NCBI RefSeq assembly: GCF_009914755.1
Contig: NC_060928.1
DNA: 64,000 nt
Direction: 5' to 3' (one strand)
Source: the human T2T-CHM13v2.0 reference genome, Homo sapiens
In this document: positions 1 through 33,797 of the stretch, one piece after another
How positions within the stretch are numbered: position 1 is the stretch's first letter
Layout: each line of letters opens with the position of its first letter
Program-made: the position numbers and the translations under genes
Notes under the pieces: model-generated
Database searches by the model: none
Told to the model about the DNA's origin: nothing
What the model saw: the letters and a program-made list of their open reading frames with translations, nothing else

Positions 1-1320
<1,320 letters not shown>

Positions 1321-1659
1321 AAATAACCTTATAAAATAAATATAAAATGGTTAAAAAAGAAAAAAAAATTATAACAGTTTGCTTTTAGTTCCCAATTAAA
1401 TTATTAGAAAAACTGAGTAAATGCTTACAAATTGTTAAGGTTATTTGACAGAGTAATTTTAGGCCAATCAAATCTAATGATAAAATATGACACGTATTTT
1501 ATATACTTCTAGTTTTCTTTTTTGATTTTTCACTTCAGTTTTGTAGTAACTAACTTTTATTGATTGTATTTTACAAAAGTATAGTCTATAAATGTACTGG
1601 AATAAAAATATACATACATACATATATAAATTCCTGAACTTCCCCTCAGTGTGAGAAGC

Positions 1660-2482: not shown

Positions 2483-4334
2483 ATGAGTAAAACAGTTTTT
2501 AAACAAGAAGGAGAAATAAAAAATTGATATGACCAATTTTTGAGCCTTTATTTTAATGATCATCAATTAAAAGCCGGCATGGCAATGCACTGCTGAAGAT
2601 AGATATTGAATTCCCCTGTATTGGTTTGCCCCAGTCTGGGATCAAGATTGCCATCCTACCAGAGTAGTGTCAAGGGTTGTCCTGTTTATAAGCAGCTGTT
2701 GCATAGAGTGATCTGGGGCTTTTCATTTGAGAAGAATTATAAAGTTTAGGGACATTCTGGGGTCCAGTACTCATTAGGAGATGTTTCTCTTTTGGCCTCT
2801 TAGATGACTTAGATGATCTTCTATTAAAGATTTTATTGATGCATGTACCTGGGGAACTTTACCCATAGTAGAGACAGAATATGTTCACCATCTAAGAAAG
2901 CCTGATCAAGAAGATCAGGGGTCAACAGCTTGAACATTGTTCATTAATGTGTACAAAATGCTATCAGTGCTAATGCTGGCTAGGGTGGGTATCTGAGGAA
3001 ACACATAAAATAAAATTAGAAATAACTAAAAGAATTAAGTTGTTTTTCTTTAAAAAATAAAAGGCTCGATGTCCAAAAAGTGTTTGGAGCTTTAGCCACA
3101 TTGTTGCTGCCTTGAAGTTGCCCTCAGCAATACAATTTTGTAGCTAAGCCAATACTGGGGAATGTCATTCTGAGGGAACTTTGGATTTAATTCTCAATGA
3201 TTTGGGGAGAAGTTTGCATAAAGTTAGTTACAGACAGTGATGAGGGTCAATTAATTTAGTGATAAGGTTTGTATCTGCAAACTGGTAACATAAATTTAAA
3301 TTTAGTTTTGTTTATCAACATGTCAATTTTCCTGACTGGAGGAACATATTTTGTACAAACAATGGTCGCTTTGTTGGTAAATAAGGCACTACAACTCTCT
3401 AGTGGCAGATGCCTTGAATTTCTGACATACTGTAGGCACCTAGAGTTGCTAATTAGCTTGTTTTAAACAACACTAGAGGTACAACATTTATCAAATCAAA
3501 TAGCCATTTCATTTTTTCAACTGGCATTTATTTGAAAACATACTACACTTTTACCTAATAAGATAACCGAATTAAAGTTTTTCATTTACTGTACAAAACC
3601 CCAAAATTATCAAAACAGAATATTAAATGTATTGTCATATTAAGTATGTGCACTTATTTTAAAGAAAATAAAACATTTCATTTAGATACTCACTAAAGCG
3701 TTTCCCCACTCACTATTAGGAATATGATCATATCTTTATTTTCCCTACAGGTTCTTAAAACTCAGAAAGGGTGAAATAAATATATTTCTTTCATGAGTCA
3801 GATATTTATGACTTAAAGACTGTAGTTAAGGATTGTGTTAATGCTTCCTTCACCCAAGTGACCTGAACCTTTTAGTAAATTCTGTCCCCATATTAGTTTT
3901 CATAAGTCAGGAAACATTTTCCATATGTCATGAAGCATTATCCAAAGGGAGTTCACAGCCACAGCGCTCATACTTTATCACGGTCACGTTGACTGAAATG
4001 AAAGCTCTTCTCAGTGATAGCACCCATCTGAGAGGTCAGAGAAAAGCATTTTTGGCACACTATTGTTCTCTCATTGGGTCAGCTGCCTCCTTGGACTGAA
4101 ATTGTTTCACAATCTTTATTAAAATTATTATAAAAGAACAGCTGAAAAAATAAACAAAGAATCTTATTTAGTGTCATCAAAGAAAAATTATCTGTCCTAG
4201 AGCAATATAATGCAATTTAACAGCCAAAACGAACATCTAGAAATAAGCAGAGGCATTAAAAATTGCTGAGGACCACAGAGTGCATTACTTTCAATAAACT
4301 TAAAAAGCAGCAAAGAAAGAAAAAAGAACGGAGA

Positions 4335-11545: not shown

Positions 11546-14500
11546 ATTAGCTGGCCTTTCTATTTTGATTTGTGATTGTTACAGAAAAAAATTTTAAAAG
11601 ATTATGGTACATGTCTTAGTATGAAGTTAAAGATCTTATATTAGACGTGTTAATTTTTAGGATTGAGCTACAGCAAACAGAATGGTTGTCATCAAGCATA
11701 GTTTGTGTAAAGTGACTCTAATATTTTCCCAGGAATGGTAGCATATGTTTTGTTGCTCAGTGAAATTATTGACCATGCTGTCTTCTGAGTCAGGGACATA
11801 TTCTAAGATGTATAACTTTGTTTTGATAAACTTCTAGCAAGAAGAATTAGCTGCGCTCTCTTTATCTGGTAGTCTGATAGCATTATCTGTGGGATTTTTT
11901 TATGGGGCAGATGTGGGTATTTTGCTTTTTCTAATAGGTTATGCCTCAAGTAACTGTAACTCTTTTCCCAATTATCCTAATAGTGATTTCCAAAGACATA
12001 AAATACATTAATTGTTAAGGCTGTCATTTGCTCCACATTGCCCTTGGCATAGAAAGCGATAGAGAATATACATTAAAAAGCATCTAAATGTGTGTTCAAG
12101 TTGGAAACTCTTAATCCTTATCCATTAAGGAAAATTGAAGTGATTTAGTGGGGCACAGATCACCACCTTAGGAACACACAAGTGAGTGAAAGATTGAGGA
12201 TTATATCATAAAAAATGGGGTAGGTAAACTAACCGTTTTCAGAAAAGAATCCTGGGGCAAACTTAAGAAATTATTAAAGAGAAGCACTGGTAAGGGCTTT
12301 AAAGCTTTTGATAAATTAATAAGAATGACCCAGGTTAACCCATAAATTAGCCAAGTCAACTATCAATGTTTTTCATGGGAGCAACACAGAGCCAGAAAAC
12401 AAAATTTCAGTTTTGATTTGTAGGCCCATTTCTGTATGTTCAAAATGGATTGGAGTTTTAAATTATCTTCCTGATATACTTCACATTTCTTCTCCTATAC
12501 TTCTAACATATATTGCTATGCATTTTATCAACATCCATTCTCTCTGAATACTTTTTATTTCTTAGCATAATATTTTATTTCAGGCATACTCCTATATGAT
12601 GTACATTTATTTTTCTTTTAAACTATATATACCTTGTGGCATAATCTAAATAGAAGAAACATAGTAAATGTTTCCAAAATGTTAATACTACTTATAGTTT
12701 CTTTATATCTTTCTTATAATACAATTCCTAACCAGCTCCAATCCATTGTAAACAAGGCATAATAAAATATATATATATGCAAATAAATATATAGATTAAA
12801 AATAAATTAACATTTTACCTTCACTTCAGAGTATTTTTAGAGATTTTAAAACATCATTATGTAATAAAATCTTGTTTAAAAGCACTGACCATTTGTGATT
12901 AGAAATTAAATTTCTGATCATTTAAGAAAGTTAAACAGTAGTATCTCTTTTCTGTGGTTCCAAGAGTTCAAGTCTCTTCAGAAATTCAAAATTTTGTGTA
13001 AAGTTTACAAATTTGGTCATATAGTATAACCTAGTATTCCCAAGAGAAGAATTAAATTAGAAATTTCTTTCTGAATCTACTGACGTGATAAGTCCAAAAT
13101 ATGACATGCTGCCCTTGTTCATTTTCTTGCATTGTTGAGATTCACTTAATTTTATGTCATCTATCCCCATTCAAATTTGAGGGAACTTTTTTTGTTTAGA
13201 TTGCCATTAAATTTATGAGCAGTAGGTTAATGATATTTATATTTGAACACAGAATTCCTTTAATTTTTATTATTTCTTAATCCTATTTATTCAGAAGTTA
13301 ATTGACTTCCTTAAAAAAATTGAGTACTAGTTACATAAACAGACATGTTGTGAACACTTCTTGTTATCAACTCTCTGAAGATAATGGTAATAGGCCTATT
13401 TTACTATAATTAGACTAAATTAATTCAAGTTAGTTAATGAAAGAAAATGGAGTCCATAGAATATTTCCATGTCATAAAAATGAAATTCCAAATTAAATGA
13501 AATTGTTTGCTTTAAAATACTATAGCATTCAGGCATATAGAGATTTGCTTGAAACCTGGGAGCATTATTGCTGTGCATCCTCTGATTATGACACACACAG
13601 TAATATCAGGTTGAAACTAACACAAAATTGATTAAGTGTGTAGAGTCTTCGTGAAAATGTTCAGTACACATAAATATTTGGTGAGCTAAAAAATATTTTA
13701 CATCTGGAACTAATTTAAATATAAAACAGAATTTCATTTCATTGACTATTACACAATTTAATTAATTAATTAATACACAATTACACAATGAAAATAATTT
13801 TTCAAAATCAAAAGACTTGGGGAGAGAATGGAATAAGAAATAAGAGCCTTAAAATATTCTGAAGTAAAACATCTCTGTATGAAACTAACCTTCCAGTATC
13901 AATCATCTTCTGTGTGTGGCTTCAGGTTTCAGATTCCATTAATTTGAAAGAGCATCAGTCTACTGAACAATGGAGAGATGTTTTTTCAGAATCAGGATAT
14001 AAACCCTCTTTTGACAATCTGAAGTGTGATTTTCCCAGAGGTAATCCATTTCAAACCAACAGTGACTACTCATTTTAATTAGTTGCAGGCAGTTTTGTAA
14101 ATTAAATTCCCTCTTCTGAAGTCAAAATTCCAGAAAGAGAATGCTTTCATTTTGCTAATTGCTAAATGAGTTTCCAGAACAAGGTAGAATGAAGGAAGGG
14201 GTTTCTAATCAGTAGGCACCTCTTAGAAGGCACACACCTGTGACTGTTGAGCAGTATCTTAGTAGGGCTGGAATGTTACCACATTGAGTGTACATGCTTG
14301 CAGTTATCTCTCAATCCATACTAATAGATTCAGTTTACATTAAAGACAATTATTTTTCCCCCTTCAGTCATACGCCTTCATGATTCTGACTTGAATTGGA
14401 CATATGTGATGTTATTTGAATTAAAAGTATGATCTAATAACCCAATACAAGACCTGATGTTTTAAAGTACAGCATTCTAATCCCTTTTGTGATATTCACT

Positions 14501-26798: not shown

Positions 26799-27120
<322 letters not shown>

Positions 27121-28625
27121 CTACTAGCTAGGCTAATAAATAAGAAAGAAGATCTAAATAAACAAAATTAGAAATGATGAAGAGGATGTTACCAGTGACC
27201 CCACAAAAATAAAAATAACCATCAGAAACTACTATGAATACTTTTGTGTACACAAACTAGAAAATCTAGAAGAAATGGATAAATTTCTGGACTCATGCTG
27301 CTCCCAAGATTGAGCCAGGAAGAAATTGAATCCCTGAGCAGACTAATAATGAGCCCCCAAATTAAATCAGAAATAAATAGCTTACCAAAAACAGCAAGAA
27401 AAAGCCCAGGACCAGAGAGATTCATAGTCAAATTCTACCAGATGAACAAGAAAGAGTTGGTACCATTTCTATAGAAAGTATTCCATAAAACTGAGGAAGA
27501 AGGACTCCTCTCTAACTCATTCTATGAGGCCAGGTTCATCTTTATACCAAAACCTGGCAGAGACACAACCAAAAAGAAGACTTCAGGCCAATATCTTTGA
27601 CGAACATCAGTGCAAAAATTCTCAACAAAATACTTGCAAACCAAGTGCAGCAGCACATCAAAAGGCTAATCCACTATGATCAAGTAGGCTTTATCCCCAC
27701 AAATCAATAAATGTGATTCATCACATAAACAGAACTAAAGACAAAAACTACATGATTATCTCAATAGATGAATAAAAGACTTTTAATAAAATTCAACACC
27801 CCATTATGTTAAAAACTCAATAAACTAGGAACTGAAAGAATATACCTCAAAATAATAAGAGCCATTTATGACAAACCCACAGCCAACATTATACATGATG
27901 GACAAAATCTGGTTGCATTCACCATGAAAACCAGCACAAGACAAGAATGCCCAACATTCAACATAGTACTGAAAGTCCTAGCCAGAGCAATCAAGCAAGA
28001 TAAAGAAATAAAGGCCATTGAAATAGAGAAGAAATCAAACTGTCTCTGTTTGCCATTGTAAAGACACATGCACACATTTGTTCATTGAAACAGTATTCAC
28101 AATAGCAAAGACATAGAATCAATCTACATGACCATCAGTGGTAGACTGGATAAAGAAAATGTGACACATATACACCAATGAATACTATGCAGCCATTAAA
28201 AACTGAGATCATGTTTCTTGCAGCATCATGGATGAAACTGGAGGCCATTATCCTTAGCAAACTACACAGGAACAGAAAAAGAAATACCACATGTTCTTAC
28301 TTATAATTTTGAGTTAAATGATAAAAACACATGGATGCATTGAGAACAACAGACACAGAGGCCTATGAGAGGGTAGAGGGTAGGAGGAGGGAGAGGATCA
28401 AGAAAAATAACTAATGATGACTAGCCTTAATACCTGGGTGACAAAATAATCTGTACAACAAACCCCCATGACACAAGTTTATGTATGTAACAAACGTACA
28501 CGTGTACCCCTGAACTTAAAAGTTAAAAAAAAACAGATATAGTTACAATAGCTCAAGTGATAAATCATGAGAAACATACTTAAAGTAATGGAAAGAAGGA
28601 CAGGAGAAAAAAGATAGATTTGACA

Positions 28626-29075
28626 TCCCATTCTGTAGGTTGCCTGTTCACTCTGATGATAGTTTCTTTTGCTGTGCAGAAGCTCTTTAGTTTAATGAGA
28701 TTCCATTTGTGAATTTTGGCTTCCGTTGCAATTGCTTTTGGCATTTTCATCATGAAGGCTTTCCCATGCCTATGTCCTGAATGGTATTGCCTAGGTTTTC
28801 TTCTACATTTCTTAAGGTTTGGGATTTTTCATTTAAGTCTTTAATCCATCTTAAGTTAATTTTTTTATAAGGTGTTAAGAAGGGGTCCAGTTTCAGTTTT
28901 CTGCACGTGGTGAGCCAGTTTTCCCAGTACCATTTATTGAATAGGAGATCATTTCCCAATTGCTTGTTTTTGTCAGGTTTCATGAATATCAGATGGTTGT
29001 AGATGTGTGGTGTTATTTCTGGGTCTCTGTTCTGTTCCATTGGTCTATATATCTGTTTTGGTACCAGTACCATGC
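28626..29075 (-). mobile_element. Inverted 5' segment (twin priming) of the L1PA10-like element
   Basis: Antisense ORF2 that breaks at ...CCTACAGAATGGGA; the sense part resumes slightly further along ORF2 at ACCCATCTGACAAAGG. Confidence 0.88.
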
Positions 29076-30345
29076 CACCCATCTGACAAAGGTCTAATAT
29101 CCAGAATCTAGAAGGAACTTAAACAAATTTACAACAGAAAAAAAAACCACCCAGTCAAAAAATGGGAAAAGGATATGAACAGATACTTCTCGTAAGAAGA
29201 CATTTATGGCTGCATAGTGAGTTCATGTCCTTTGTAGGGACATGGATGAAATTGGAAACCATCATTCTCAGTAAACTATCGCAAGAACAAAAAACCAAAC
29301 ACCGCGTATTCTCACTCATAGGTGGGAATTGAACAATGAGATCACATGGACACAGGAAGGGGAATATCACACTCTGGGGACTGTGGTGGGGTCGGGGGAG
29401 GGGGGAGGGATAGCATTGGGAGATATACCTAATGCTAGATGACACGTTAGTGGGTGCAGCGCACCAGCATGGCACATGTATACATATGTAACTAACCTGC
29501 ACAATGTGCACATGTACCCTAAAACTTAGAGTATAATAAAAAAAAAAAAACCATTAAAAAAAAAAAGAAAAAAAAAAAAGAAGACATTTACATGGCCAAT
29601 AAACATGAAAAAAAGCTCAGCATTACTGATCATTAAAAAATGCAAATCAAAACCACAATGAGATACAAACTAGAAAATCTAGAAGAAATGCCAGTCAGAA
29701 TGGCAATTATTAAAAGTCAAGAAACAATAGGCTGTGAAGAAATAGGAATGCTTTTACACTGTTGGTGGGAATGTAAGTTAGTTCAACCATTGTGGAAGAC
29801 CATATGGTGATTCCTCAAGGATCTAGAACCAGAAATACCATTTGACTCAGTAGTGATCCTATTACTGGGTATATACCCAAAGGATGATAAGTCATTCTAC
29901 TATGAAGACACATGTACACATATGTTTATTGCAGTACTATTTACAATAGCAAAGTCATGGAACCAACACAAATACTCATCAATGATAGACTGGATAAAGA
30001 AAATGTGGTACAAATACACCATGGAATACTACAGAGCCATAAAAAGAAATGAGATCATCTGATTTGCAGGGACAAAGATGAAGCTGGAAGCCATCATCCT
30101 CAGCAAACTAACACAGGAACAGAAAACCAAATACCACATGTTCTCACTCATAAGTAGGAGTTGAACAATGAGAACACATGGACACAGGGGAACATCACAC
30201 ACCAGGGCCTGTTGGGTATAGGGGGCAAGAGGAGGAAACTTAGAGGACGGGTCAATAGGTGCAGCAAACAACCATGGTACACATATATCTATGAAACAAA
30301 CCTGCACATTCTGCACATGTATCTGGAACTTAAAGTAAAATAAAA
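29076..30345 (+). mobile_element. L1PA10-like (L1PA8-PA11 era) 3' portion, interrupted by L1HS
   Basis: ORF2 3' end and 3'UTR TTAGAGGACGGGTCAATAGGTGCAGC...GGAACTTAAAGTAAAATAAAA. Confidence 0.82.
29207..29577 (+). mobile_element. 5'-truncated L1HS pre-Ta (ACG/G) insertion
   Basis: ACG at 29444-29446, G at 29529 (CTTAGAGTATAAT), long A tail, perfect 13-bp TSD AAGAAGACATTTA at 29194-29206 and 29578-29590. Confidence 0.93.
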
Positions 30346-30375
30346 TGTTTTAAAAAGAAAGAAACAAACAAATGA

Positions 30376-30579
30376 AAAAAACCCTAGGAACATGCAATGT
30401 GTGAAAATGCTTTGTGATGTGCTGTTTTATATCACAGAATGGAACCTGTGCTTTTATTCGACAAGTTCGAAACACTCTTTTTGTAGAATCTAAGAAGTGA
30501 CATCTGAGCCTATTGAATCCTTATAGGAACATATTCATATCCAGTCCTAAAAACTAGAAACAAGCTAGCTGTAAAAATG
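30376..30579 (+). repeat. Isolated alpha-satellite (ALR/Alpha) monomer, about 1.2 units, old monomeric type
   Basis: Alphoid blocks CTTTGTGATGTG, TCACAGAATGGAACCT, GAAACACTCTTTTTGTAGAATCT, TAAAAACTAGA; 170-bp periodicity (30384-30409 vs 30554-30579, 20/26 identical); no CENP-B box seen. Confidence 0.9.
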
Positions 30580-30644
30580 AAAAAAAGAGAGAGATAAATC
30601 CCTAAGTTTAATGAACTCTCTGTGTTGTCCACTGTTATTCACTG

Positions 30645-30752
30645 GATTCCTTCCTCGCTCCCTCTTTCCCCTCTCTATTTCTTCCTTATTTTCTTCATTC
30701 CTTCATTTCTCCTTCTTGTGTCCCTTTCTTTTTTCTATATTCTCATTCTTTT
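30645..30752. repeat. CT-rich low-complexity tract
   Basis: Seen directly. Confidence 0.7.
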
Positions 30753-31699
30753 GGCTATAATTAAACTGATGACAATTTCACCTTAATCAAGATAAGCAAA
30801 GTTATTGGGATCTGTTCTGATAGGCTGTTGTTGTCTGAAACTATTTGGCCAATAGGATCCCCAAATTTCCAGAAACATTGGTGTAAGATTTTCTAGGCAT
30901 TGCCTATTTAGTACTGAGCAAATTATTTTACTTCTATCTGCTTTGTCATTTAAAAAGGAAGCTGACATATGAGATCATCTTTTAACATTTTGCAGCTTGG
31001 GAATACTTTATCTGAATAGCTTTTGGTATGCAATAACATTCCAGATCACTTGAAAAACAGGTCAAATTTACGTACACTTTCAAATATGTATTTTTTCATT
31101 TATTTTTTATTTTATATTTTGCTTTTAATAATTATTTTATATGTGGCAAGCACAGTGCTAAATACTTTAATATTTTATTATGTAGAGTTTAAAATAGACA
31201 CAATGGGAGACAAAATAATCAAAGGAACTGTTCACTTAACTTTACCAATATCATAGCAAATGATTTTTAAGTAGAGCTAAATTCCTACCTTTTTAAAATC
31301 CCTAATTTTAAAAAATCAGATATCTTTTTGGTTTTGCATTACAATAGCGGAATAATATAACATATAACTTTCCTTTCTTCAGGATATTGGAAAACCCCTT
31401 AAAGAAGGCACATTAAGGTGGAGTTCATTTTACTTATTGCTGAACACAAAATATTAATTCCTTCAAATATTCATATATTTTATACCTTAATTAATAGAAA
31501 AGCAGACTAAAATTTTTCCACCAATTATTCACTTGCATCGATCCAAATTATTGTAGTATTTGGGTCAAACAGACAATTTTGTCCTTTTAGAGGTTGTATA
31601 GTATGATTGTATCATGAGCAAATTATTTGGACAAATGTCAAATGACATTATCCAGCAAGTTATAATCAATAGGTGCTTATTCAACAAATCATTTTGTCC

Positions 31700-31905
31700 A
31701 GAGAGTAGAGCCCCATGTGAACCAATAGTCAAGAATTCTGTGTAACCTCCCTTTTTGCCGTGACTTGCTTCGTGAATTGGAAAAATCAGTTAACCTCTCG
31801 GTGCTTCAGTTCACTCATCTATGAACTGAGGAGAGTAACATTTGCCACCTAACTTGCCAGTATTTTGTGAAGGTTAATGAGCTTCAGAGTTTATAAAGTG
31901 CTTTT
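31700..31905 (+). mobile_element. MIR-family relic
   Basis: Core TTAACCTCTCGGTGCTTCAGTTCACTCATCTATGAA...TTGTGAAGGTTAATGAG. Confidence 0.7.
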
Positions 31906-32721
31906 TCTTTCTGGATTGAAAGATTTTTGAAGATTACTAAGTGTCACTGCAATTTTTTTTCTTCTTAAAACTCCACTAAATCTTTTTAAAAATTCATGAT
32001 ATTATATTATAAAATATGCGGTAACATTCTTCTAGTGGCACCATCCCATATTTATCATGTTATAGGGGTAAGAAAAGCATCAGCATCACTGCTTCTGTAC
32101 TGGATTCACATAACTCATATTATTAGTCTGAACACATTGCACCCCCAATAACATATGCACGTTTGACAGCTGTTTCCAACTTCAACTTAAAATACTTTAG
32201 TTCTAACCAGTTTCTCAAGACCCTATCATTTCTTGGCATAGTTTTATAAGTTAAATATTAACAGGAAAAAAAAGCTTCTCCTCTGAACAAATGTGCCTCT
32301 TATATAATGCCACAATGAATGAAAAATGTTAAGATCAAGATCTTAACTGAAACCCACAAAAGTAAGATGATTTCATATAAGTGGAAAATCTGTGCTGTTA
32401 CTTTGCACTTTTTGAAACAGTTTTGCCAAAGCTCTGCTTGAGATAAGGGAACTTTTAATAGCACAAATTTGTCTGGATCCTGGACTTTAGATGAAGGGTA
32501 ACAAATTCTATGTTTCATGGATTTTAATTAATTTCATAGTATTTACATATATATAGTTTTTAAATTTGAGCAAGAAAATCATATAATTTTTATGCCATTA
32601 AATGAGTTTATCTTGGAATTTTAGAAAGATATCAAGTTATAGAATAAACTTTTTAAAAATTACAGTTTTTCAGGTTACTTTAAAATATTTTAAAAATACC
32701 CATTGCACCATATATTCAAAC

Positions 32722-32724
<3 letters not shown>

Positions 32725-32762
<38 letters not shown>
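32725..32762. repeat. Perfect (CA)n microsatellite, about 19 units
   Basis: Seen directly. Confidence 0.97.
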
Positions 32763-32764
<2 letters not shown>

Positions 32765-33797
32765 AAAACTTAAAGGAAAAAATTAAAAATACATATATTT
32801 TGCACTTTTGATTTCTCTCTGGACAGGAAAAAGAAACTATCCAAAAAGCCTGGAGGCATAGTACTCTTACGTTTTTTTTCCTGATTATGGAAATCAGTGA
32901 AATTATCTATTATGGTTTTAGTTCAAAGTAAATACAAGTGAAAGTCAATATTATCTGAAAGTTTACAGAAAAAAAATTCCAAAATAATTTTAGATTTTTT
33001 TGGGCACCATCTATCCAAGGGCTATCACTGACAAAGGATTCATTTCTTCGATTTCCCAAAATGAAAGTAATACATAAAAGTAAAATGGAGAGATTTTTAA
33101 GATTATCACCTAGATACCAACATGTCCTTCTTTGTTCCTTCCTAGTTTGCCAACCAGCCTCTACCCCCAGGTCTGTATGGATGTAGATAGAGGCACTTAA
33201 AATGAAGGGCAACAGAAATTCAGGCTCCTGCAAGAAGATACAAGGAGTTTGTCTCTTAAACCACAATCTAGTATTGTAACTGTGACTGGATAGTCAGATA
33301 GCCAAATAAATTACACAGGGATCCTTAATTTAGAGCAGGTAATTTATAAAAAGCAAAATTTGGGTTTAATTATTTTTTTTCTCCTCTTGGGGCAATATAA
33401 TGCTGTGGTTTCCATGTGCCAGTTCTCAGACCAGAGATGGTTTTGGACAAGATGAGAAAAATAAGACAAAATTTTTATGTATGTGAAGGTAAAATTGTCA
33501 ATTATCCTGCTTTATAAAATATACCTTTGAGTCCAAGAATCTGCACTTTTAAATTATTTTGTGATAGAGTTACTTTCTTTTATAAAATAGTGGTGATAGA
33601 GTAAATTTTTTAAATAATGTCCTTACTTAGCAAAGTTAAAAGTTAGAAAAACTATGTTGTTCCTGGTTCCTTCACACTACCACTTTTTTAAGAAAATATA
33701 TTCATCACTAAAATCCAAGTCCAAAACTCTTTGTTTTAAATATTATATAATAGCTTCAGATAGCTTAAGAAAGCAAGATGTATAATATCATTATATA

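What the first reader, a model, noticed from the sequence alone, without database searches (positions are those of the whole stretch)
28607..30602. Centromeric alpha satellite apparently exported to a chromosome arm by L1 3' transduction
Seen: a single alphoid unit (30376-30579, 170-bp period) starts immediately after the A tail of the L1PA10-like element and ends in another A run. It begins at the AAAAACTAG position of the monomer, whose TAAAAA context is an L1 endonuclease-type site. A degenerate repeat brackets the whole unit: AAAAAAGATAGATTTGACATCCC (28607-28629) and AAAAAAGAGAGAGATAAATCCC (30581-30602), 18/23 aligned, ending in the TCCC shared with the inverted L1 start. Known: L1 read-through mobilises 3' flanks. 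Inference: an L1 inside an old centromeric array was transcribed and carried alphoid DNA here, leaving a monomer frozen outside concerted evolution. The TSD is only suggestive.
Basis: partly seen in the sequence, partly recalled or inferred. Interest (0 to 1): 0.82.

Follow-up and report, generated by a model that had tools for sequence, protein, structure and literature searches.

The report
Lone alphoid unit in L1 tail
A single old alpha-satellite unit really does sit on a chromosome arm just behind an L1 tail, but it is an already published locus and its own 12-base flanking repeat suggests it was inserted into the L1 tail separately, not carried there by L1 read-through.

Summary
Window 30384-30579 is 1.15 units of an old 171-bp alphoid family (E 2.7e-58). 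It is the only alphoid in the 64 kb and lies about 60 Mb from the chr4 centromere.

It follows the A-rich tail of a twin-primed L1. So the alphoid lies inside the L1's target-site duplication.

The locus is in print as sat_730 of Feliciello et al. 2020 (PMC7719264). It is described there as between L1PA8A and a simple repeat, dated to Simiformes, with duplicated target ATGAAAAAAA.

That duplication is a perfect 12-base repeat around the alphoid alone (30370-30381 and 30575-30586). Read-through does not predict it. The chance that the first tail ends this way is about 7e-4.

The alphoid has almost no second poly(A), no canonical polyadenylation hexamer, and no source or sibling junction in CHM13.

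Odds:
- Separate nested insertion into the boundary between the L1 tail and its duplication: about 0.55.
- 3' transduction: about 0.2.

No primate orthologues were on hand, so this is not settled. Interest is low to moderate.

The parts
28607..28629 (+). Left copy of the L1 target-site duplication (AAAAAAGATAGATTTGACATCCC). The last four bases, TCCC, are shared with the start of the inverted L1 arm.
   Evidence: Aligns 18/23 with 30581-30602. 2 of 485 control A-run sites score as high, and none of them ends at the L1 boundary.
28626..29075 (-). Inverted 5' arm of a twin-primed L1 (ORF2 3' region, read on the minus strand).
   Evidence: Its reverse complement aligns to positions 10-365 of the window's own L1 at 1-1380, used as a ruler, at 86.5%.
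29076..29193 (+). Direct arm of the same L1, first part. It starts 17 ruler bases after the end of the inverted arm.
   Evidence: Aligns to ruler 383-504 at 82.8%.
29194..29590 (+). A younger L1 3' fragment with a poly(A), nested in the old L1 and flanked by a perfect 13-base duplication AAGAAGACATTTA at 29194 and 29578.
   Evidence: 96% identical to ruler 969-1326.
29591..30345 (+). Direct arm of the old L1, second part, up to its 3' end. Its own AATAAA is at 30339.
   Evidence: Aligns to ruler 527-1292 at 76%. Hexamer scan.
30346..30381 (+). Degenerate A-rich L1 tail, ending in AAATGAAAAAAA.
   Evidence: Read directly. TRF row 30352-30382.
30370..30381 (+). Left copy of the inner 12-base direct repeat AAATGAAAAAAA.
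   Evidence: It is the only exact 12-mer pair at 100-300 bases that touches this region, and one of about 10 non-homopolymer pairs in 64 kb. Listed as the duplicated target ATGAAAAAAA of sat_730.
30384..30579 (+). Solitary alphoid unit, 1.15 monomers (model positions 1-171 plus 1-26), preceded by CC at 30382-30383.
   Evidence: nhmmer E 2.7e-58. 154/171 identical to the family consensus. Best genome matches are 83-84% identical.
30575..30586 (+). Right copy of the inner repeat. Its first five bases (AAATG) also match alphoid positions 22-26, giving a 5-base microhomology at the 3' junction.
30581..30602 (+). Right copy of the L1 target-site duplication (AAAAAAGAGAGAGATAAATCCC).

Best explanation
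I read this as two nested events.

First event. An L1 inserted by twin priming. It made a roughly 22-base target-site duplication (28607-29 and 30581-602) and left a degenerate A-rich tail ending in ...AAATGAAAAAAA.

Second event. Later, but still before New World and Old World monkeys split (dating taken from the paper), about 1.15 units of the alphoid family then current were inserted exactly where that tail meets the L1's 3' duplication. This second insertion duplicated 12 bases of target (AAATGAAAAAAA).
- Its 3' junction uses a 5-base match (AAATG) between target and alphoid instead of a poly(A).
- Its 5' junction carries two extra C's.

A 12-base, A-initial duplication at a T-rich bottom strand, in the sense orientation, is what L1 endonuclease and target-primed reverse transcription of an alphoid RNA would give. 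Capture of an alphoid DNA fragment at a staggered break is the alternative route.

Shown: the anatomy, both duplications and their rarity. Inferred: the order of events and the RNA or DNA nature of the intermediate.
For: - The inner 12/12 repeat brackets the alphoid alone. Only 2 of 487 A-runs of six or more bases in 278 kb of this genome are preceded by AAATG, and 87 of 487 have length 7. A chance match of the first tail is therefore about 7e-4.
- Taking out 30382-30586 leaves a plain L1 3' end whose tail abuts its duplication.
- The second A run (7) is no longer than the duplication's own A run (6) plus one.
- No canonical poly(A) hexamer lies upstream of the alphoid end.
- The same locus holds a control for what a nested insertion looks like: the young L1 fragment with a 13/13 duplication.
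- The published record of the locus lists this duplication.
- For the 11 embedded alphoid units in Table 2 of that paper, outgroup primates show the host transposon without the alphoid wherever the locus could be read. sat_1147 could not be assessed, and sat_703 was seen only in mouse lemur.
- No second copy of the junction exists in CHM13: 11 matches, and only the window itself spans it.
- At sat_685 the alphoid start GAAGTGAC recurs as GAAGTGCC right after the second tail (7/8). This is again a repeat around the alphoid and not around the L1.
Against: - The right copy's AAATG is also what the alphoid would read at positions 22-26. The informative part of the repeat therefore rests on the left copy. 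The model needs a 5-base microhomology at the junction.
- 12/12 identity is rather good for an event at least 40 Myr old, when the outer repeat has decayed to 18/23.
- In both L1-adjacent loci examined (the window and sat_685), the alphoid starts at monomer sites where Alus have inserted in arrays (AAAA/CTAG and AAGAA/GTGAC). A resident source L1 would produce exactly this.
- L1PA8-11 activity and the Simiformes dating leave little time between the two events. The L1 ages are recalled, not tested.
- No orthologue could be examined here.
Confidence: 0.55

Rival explanations
1. L1 3' transduction. A source L1 sitting in an old alphoid array at the AAAA/CTAG site was transcribed past its own AATAAA. 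The RNA ended 197 bases into the alphoid. The whole RNA was inserted here in one twin-primed event.
For: - The L1 duplication encloses L1 plus alphoid.
- The alphoid is on the L1's strand and starts at an A-rich monomer site that Alus also used in arrays: sat_496 and the chr7 array.
- sat_685 repeats the layout with an A38 second tail.
- Satellite transduction has a precedent, AluSx3-WaluSat.
Against: - It does not predict the 12/12 repeat around the alphoid alone. Chance is about 7e-4.
- The second poly(A) is at most one base beyond the duplication's own A's.
- No AATAAA or ATTAAA lies before the alphoid end.
- No source or sibling junction is found in CHM13, matching the paper's negative BLAT search for hybrid elements.
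- The two loci have different junctions, so two separate source elements would be needed.
Confidence: 0.2
2. Circular alphoid DNA integrated by recombination at a short shared motif. This is the mechanism proposed in the paper that describes the locus.
For: - Microhomology is present: AAATG at the right junction.
- sat_722 (L011) is one unit plus a 7-base CAAGCTA overlap, as a monomer circle would give.
- sat_826 (L030) has no A tail at all.
Against: - Recombination within AAATG would place alphoid position 27 after the left copy. What follows is A7, CC and position 1.
- The duplicated 12 bases are target sequence (L1 tail plus L1 duplication), not alphoid.
- sat_685 carries a 38-base poly(A) on the alphoid's sense strand.
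Confidence: 0.1
3. The alphoid was there first and the L1 inserted beside it. Alternatively, one reverse-transcription run switched template from an alphoid RNA to an L1 RNA.
For: Alus do insert into solitary and arrayed units at AAAA/CTAG. Chimeric retrocopies made by template switching are known (recalled, not checked here).
Against: - No alphoid homology is found in the L1's 5' flank 28520-28640, even at E 1000. This is unlike sat_496, where the alphoid continues on the far side of the Alu.
- The stretch after the first tail matches the 5' flank no better than 132 of 178 controls.
- Template switching does not explain the inner repeat either.
Confidence: 0.07

Closest known systems
sat_730, a dispersed euchromatic alpha repeat of Feliciello et al. 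2020 (Genome Biol Evol 12:2125, PMC7719264). I read the abstract, sections 12 and 16, passages, and supplement file 1 part 2.
   Same: It is the same locus.
- hg38 chr4:111490800-111491006, 207 bases, intergenic, 630 kb from MIR297.
- Described as 'between L1PA8A and simple repeat', with duplicated target ATGAAAAAAA and dating Simiformes.

The match to the window rests on chromosome, length, neighbours, the identical duplicated string, and an offset (3.30 Mb) close to that of sat_722 = L011 (3.49 Mb). I ran no formal lift-over.
   Different: - The paper lists its size as 0.5 unit; I find 1.15 units.
- The paper does not describe the L1's own duplication enclosing the alphoid, the twin priming, or the misfit of the circle model at this junction.
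- The word 'transduction' does not occur in its main text.
L1 3' transduction (Moran 1999, Goodier 2000, Pickeral 2000: recalled; general description read in Hoyt et al. 2021 preprint)
   Same: An L1 3' end with its own tail, then foreign DNA, then an A run, then a duplication that encloses everything.
   Different: The foreign segment has a private 12-base duplication, has essentially no new poly(A), has no poly(A) signal, and has no traceable source.
AluSx3-WaluSat transduction (Hoyt et al. 2021, bioRxiv 10.1101/2021.07.12.451456; passages read)
   Same: A satellite unit that sits directly behind a retroelement tail on chromosome arms.
   Different: In that case several offspring share the junction and keep duplications around Alu plus satellite. 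Here the junction is unique in the genome.
Nested retroelement insertion into an older element's A tail, and L1 twin priming (Ostertag and Kazazian 2001: recalled)
   Same: - An A-rich tail used as target, the same orientation, and a 12-13-base duplication starting with A's. The young L1 fragment at 29194-29590 is an in-window example.
- The inverted and direct arms are contiguous on the L1 ruler apart from 17 bases.
   Different: The inserted piece is satellite DNA without a poly(A), joined through a 5-base match.

Membership tests
Alpha satellite (ALR/Alpha) | Sequence homology to the ~171-bp alphoid monomer over its full length | tested here: met
   nhmmer with a profile of 52 monomers from tandem 171-bp arrays gives 30384-30579, E 2.7e-58. 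The unit is annotated ALR/Alpha by RepeatMasker according to PMC7719264.
Alpha satellite (ALR/Alpha) | Head-to-tail tandem array | tested here: not met
   1.15 units only. TRF gives no ~171-bp row, and there is no other alphoid in the 64 kb.
Alpha satellite (ALR/Alpha) | CENP-B box or pJ-alpha motif, assignment to a named suprachromosomal family | not tested
   No reference motifs or monomer classes were available as tool sequences. The paper labels the unit 'Um'.
L1 3' transduction | L1 3' end with its own tail followed by non-L1 DNA on the same strand | tested here: met
L1 3' transduction | Target-site duplication enclosing L1 plus transduced DNA | tested here: met
   18/23. 2 of 485 controls score as high. 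A later insertion into the tail predicts this equally.
L1 3' transduction | A second, new poly(A) tail after the transduced DNA, with a poly(A) signal upstream | tested here: not met
   The A7 compares with an A6 already in the duplication. Only AATGAA is found, at the junction itself, and no AATAAA or ATTAAA. Tail loss with age cannot be ruled out.
L1 3' transduction | No private duplication around the transduced segment | tested here: not met
   AAATGAAAAAAA occurs at 30370 and 30575, 12/12. Chance is about 7e-4.
L1 3' transduction | A source or sibling locus sharing the tail/flank junction | tested here: inconclusive
   Of 11 matches, only the window spans the junction. The search scores only the best candidates, and an event at least 40 Myr old may have lost its source.
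Dispersed euchromatic alpha repeats (Feliciello et al. 2020) | Solitary ALR unit more than 5 Mb from the centromere, unique in the genome, with a short duplication at the insertion site | tested here: met
   Listed as sat_730.
Twin-primed (5'-inverted) L1 insertion | Inverted 5' arm and direct 3' arm adjoining on the L1 map, with a small gap, inside one duplication | tested here: met
   Ruler positions 10-365 (inverted) and 383 onward (direct), a 17-base gap. Duplication.

The most novel reading that the evidence does not exclude
Early-simian alphoid units reached chromosome arms as RNA through the L1 machinery. This would be either read-through from L1s resident in the old arrays or trans copying of alphoid transcripts into A-rich tails, and not only through DNA circles as the published model holds.

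The window (sat_730) and sat_685 would be two exemplars. Both lie directly behind same-strand L1PA8-11 tails. Both start at monomer sites that L1 endonuclease demonstrably uses. sat_685 ends in a 38-base poly(A).

sat_1 and sat_705, both listed as 'adjacent to L1PA10', were not examined.
Probability: 0.4. Interest if true: 0.5.

Novelty: already known. Interest (0 to 1): 0.27.

Why it matters
Solitary alphoid units on arms are dated fossils of the centromeric satellite of early simians. How they got there bears on how satellites seed new sites.

This locus, its dating and its flanking duplication are already published, so the find itself is ordinary.

Two things are new:
- The alphoid lies inside a twin-primed L1's target duplication.
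- The junctions fit a staggered-cut, L1-type insertion better than the published circle-recombination model.

With sat_685, that gives a testable hint that L1 enzymes moved alphoid RNA. Two loci do not make a rule.

Tried and rejected
- **L1 inserted into a larger pre-existing alphoid block.** Rejected. There is no alphoid signal in 28520-28640 or 30580-30800, even at E 1000.
- **Alphoid homology running back into the L1 tail.** One chr3 monomer aligns 83% over 64 bases including the tail. The three-unit profile alignment still starts at 30384 (envelope from 30364). Left open as weak.
- **The (AAAC)n-plus-alphoid junction on chrX (L028) as a possible source.** It is a microsatellite grown inside an array monomer, not a retroelement tail.
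- **Source or sibling search.** Only L1-only or alphoid-only hits were found for the window junction and for the sat_685 junction (40 matches, only itself spans).
- **A duplication for sat_685 around L1 plus alphoid.** None clearer than noise was found (scores 7). The left flank there is an (AAT)n run.
- **Looking at sat_705 (AFAP1 intron).** I asked for 400 kb of chr4p. The tool returned 10 kb of each 20 kb, 200 kb in all, and no alphoid was in it.
- **Paper searches.** One search returned only off-topic papers. Searches failed on term syntax.
- **Literature on alphoid transduction.** Searches turned up no paper that proposes L1 3' transduction of alpha satellite. Of the listed papers I opened only three.
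- **bioRxiv supplements.** The transduction tables of Hoyt et al. were not available and could list this locus.
Full report
**What is there**

The window is CHM13 chr4:114762001-114826000. Reading 28400-30900 shows, from left to right:
- 73 bases of unique DNA behind an older L1 tail.
- An L1 whose first 450 bases are inverted.
- The rest of that L1 in direct orientation, interrupted by a younger L1 3' fragment.
- A degenerate A-rich tail ending at 30381.
- CC.
- An alphoid-looking stretch.
- A7, then GAGAGAGATAAATCCC.

**Is it alphoid, and is it alone?**

Searching the window's own genome with 30376-30602 gave 170 matches. The best non-self matches are 83-84% identical. Almost all matches lie in tandem 171-bp arrays at chr7:65.6 Mb, chr3:128.38 Mb, chr22:22.55 Mb and smaller blocks.

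I built a profile from 52 full-length monomers of those arrays. nhmmer places the window copy at 30384-30552 (E 5.4e-48), plus 30554-30579 as the first 26 positions of a next unit. A three-unit version of the profile joins them into one hit, 30384-30579, E 2.7e-58.

The unit is 154/171 identical to the family consensus. That is closer than any of the 52 array monomers (mean 84%), but those monomers were picked by likeness to this unit, which biases the figure.

Nothing else in the 64 kb is alphoid:
- blastn finds only itself.
- The next nhmmer hit is a 59-base stretch at E 0.048.
- The flanks 28520-28640 and 30580-30800 give nothing at E 1000.
- TRF finds no ~171-bp period in 27000-33000.

No other chr4 match lies near 114.8 Mb.

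**The L1**

I used the young L1 at window 1-1380 as a ruler.
- The reverse complement of 28626-29075 maps to ruler 10-365.
- 29076-29198 maps to 383-504.
- 29586-30345 maps to 527-1292.

So the two arms adjoin apart from 17 bases. This is the twin-priming layout (mechanism recalled from Ostertag and Kazazian 2001). The fragment at 29207-29577 is 96% identical to the ruler. It is flanked by a perfect 13-base duplication at 29194 and 29578, a clean in-window example of a nested insertion.

The 30 bases ending at the L1 boundary align 18/23 (score 12) with the stretch starting at 30581. With the stretch after the first tail they share only the A run (score 7).
- Among control A-run sites, 1 of 178 in the window and 2 of 485 in 278 kb of this genome reach 12. 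None of these also ends at the L1 boundary.
- Score 7 is reached by 132 of 178.

The L1's 3' duplication therefore lies after the alphoid. This rules against an L1 that merely landed beside an older alphoid. At sat_496 on chr19, an Alu did land in an alphoid, and there the alphoid continues on both sides of the Alu. Here it does not.

AAATGAAAAAAA occurs at 30370-30381, where it forms the end of the L1 tail. It occurs again at 30575-30586, directly after the alphoid body. It is one of about ten non-homopolymer exact 12-mer pairs at 100-300 bases in the whole window, and it brackets the alphoid to within two bases.

Read-through does not predict this. The first tail would have to end in AAATG plus exactly seven A's by chance. 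In 487 A-runs of six or more bases, 2 are preceded by AAATG and 87 have length 7, giving about 7e-4.

A caveat: the right copy's AAATG is also what the alphoid reads at positions 22-26. The nested-insertion model therefore needs a 5-base microhomology at that junction. That is a normal feature of target-primed reverse transcription without a poly(A), and of end joining.

Further points against read-through:
- The second A run has seven A's, while the L1 duplication's own A run has six.
- No AATAAA or ATTAAA lies in the alphoid.
- The junction is unique in CHM13.

**The locus is in print**

Feliciello et al. 2020 (PMC7719264) list sat_730 at hg38 chr4:111490800-111491006. They describe it as 'between L1PA8A and simple repeat', inserted in the ancestor of Simiformes, with duplicated target ATGAAAAAAA.

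For the 11 alphoid units embedded in transposons (their Table 2), they report the host element without the alphoid in outgroup primates wherever the orthologous locus could be read. sat_1147 could not be assessed in either outgroup, and sat_703 only in mouse lemur. They found no spread of alphoid-transposon hybrids. They propose integration of circular alphoid DNA at short shared motifs. The word 'transduction' is absent from their text.

At this locus the circle model fits poorly:
- Recombination within AAATG would put alphoid position 27 after the left copy, not A7-CC-position 1.
- The duplicated bases are target DNA.

A staggered cut of 12 bases at an A-rich site, with the insert in the sense orientation, fits L1 endonuclease better. 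That is inference.

**A second locus**

sat_685 (CHM13 chr3:102663109-353) has the following layout:
- A 5'-truncated L1 3' end.
- A11.
- 1.9 alphoid units on the same strand.
- A short CA run, A38 and GAAA repeats.

The long poly(A) argues for an RNA intermediate there. The alphoid starts GAAGTGAC, and the first non-tail bases after the second tail read GAAGTGCC (7/8). This again ties the alphoid's own ends to the flank. No enclosing duplication is visible, and the junction is unique.

In favour of read-through, both loci start at monomer sites where Alus inserted in arrays:
- AAAA/CTAG in the chr7 array and at sat_496.
- AAGAA/ATGAC in the chr3 array.

Other solitary units show no retro marks. 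sat_722 is one unit plus a 7-base overlap. sat_826 has no A run.

**Verdict**

I put a nested, separate insertion into the boundary between the L1 tail and its duplication at about 0.55, undecided between an RNA and a DNA route. Other odds:
- 3' transduction: about 0.2.
- Circle recombination: about 0.1.
- Other histories: the rest.

Satellite transduction as a concept is already published for WaluSat.

Primate orthologues, the decisive test, were not available. sat_1 and sat_705 could not be fetched.

Noticed in passing
window 29194-29590: A young L1 3' fragment (96% identical to the L1 at window 1-1380) with a poly(A) is nested in the old L1's ORF2 region. It is flanked by a perfect 13-base duplication AAGAAGACATTTA. 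About 13 bases at its 5' junction (29207-29217) did not align to the ruler.
   Followed up: partly
L031 (CHM13 chr3:102660500-102665500), 2540-3100 on the minus strand: sat_685 consists of a short L1 3' end, A11, 1.9 alphoid units, a CA run, A38 and GAAA repeats. An (AAT)12 run lies on the 5' side of the L1. The paper lists only 'AAA' as the duplication. The 38-base poly(A) on the alphoid's sense strand is not discussed there.
   Followed up: partly
L003 (CHM13 chr19:6806998-6810191), 1144-1749: At sat_496 an Alu inserted into the alphoid at AAAA/GTAGAAACAAACT. The alphoid lies on both sides, and the Alu's duplication is made of alphoid sequence.
   Followed up: yes
L028 (CHM13 chrX:57370195-57373259), about 1530-1570 on the minus strand: An (AAAC)n microsatellite has grown out of the A run between two alphoid monomers in an array. 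It mimics a retroelement tail.
   Followed up: yes
L012/L019 (chr7:65.6 Mb), L013 (chr3:128.39 Mb), L018 (chr22:22.55 Mb), L024 (chr16:38.43 Mb): Roughly 300-base gaps in the old alphoid arrays are Alu insertions, in sense and antisense, at several A-rich or T-rich monomer sites and not only at AAAA/CTAG.
   Followed up: partly
window 28061-28533: An older L1 3' end with a short A9 tail lies 73 bases upstream of the twin-primed L1, on the same strand.
   Followed up: no
window 13979-14037: A weak alphoid-profile hit (E 0.048, 59 bases, 8.8 bits), below the inclusion threshold. It is probably chance.
   Followed up: no
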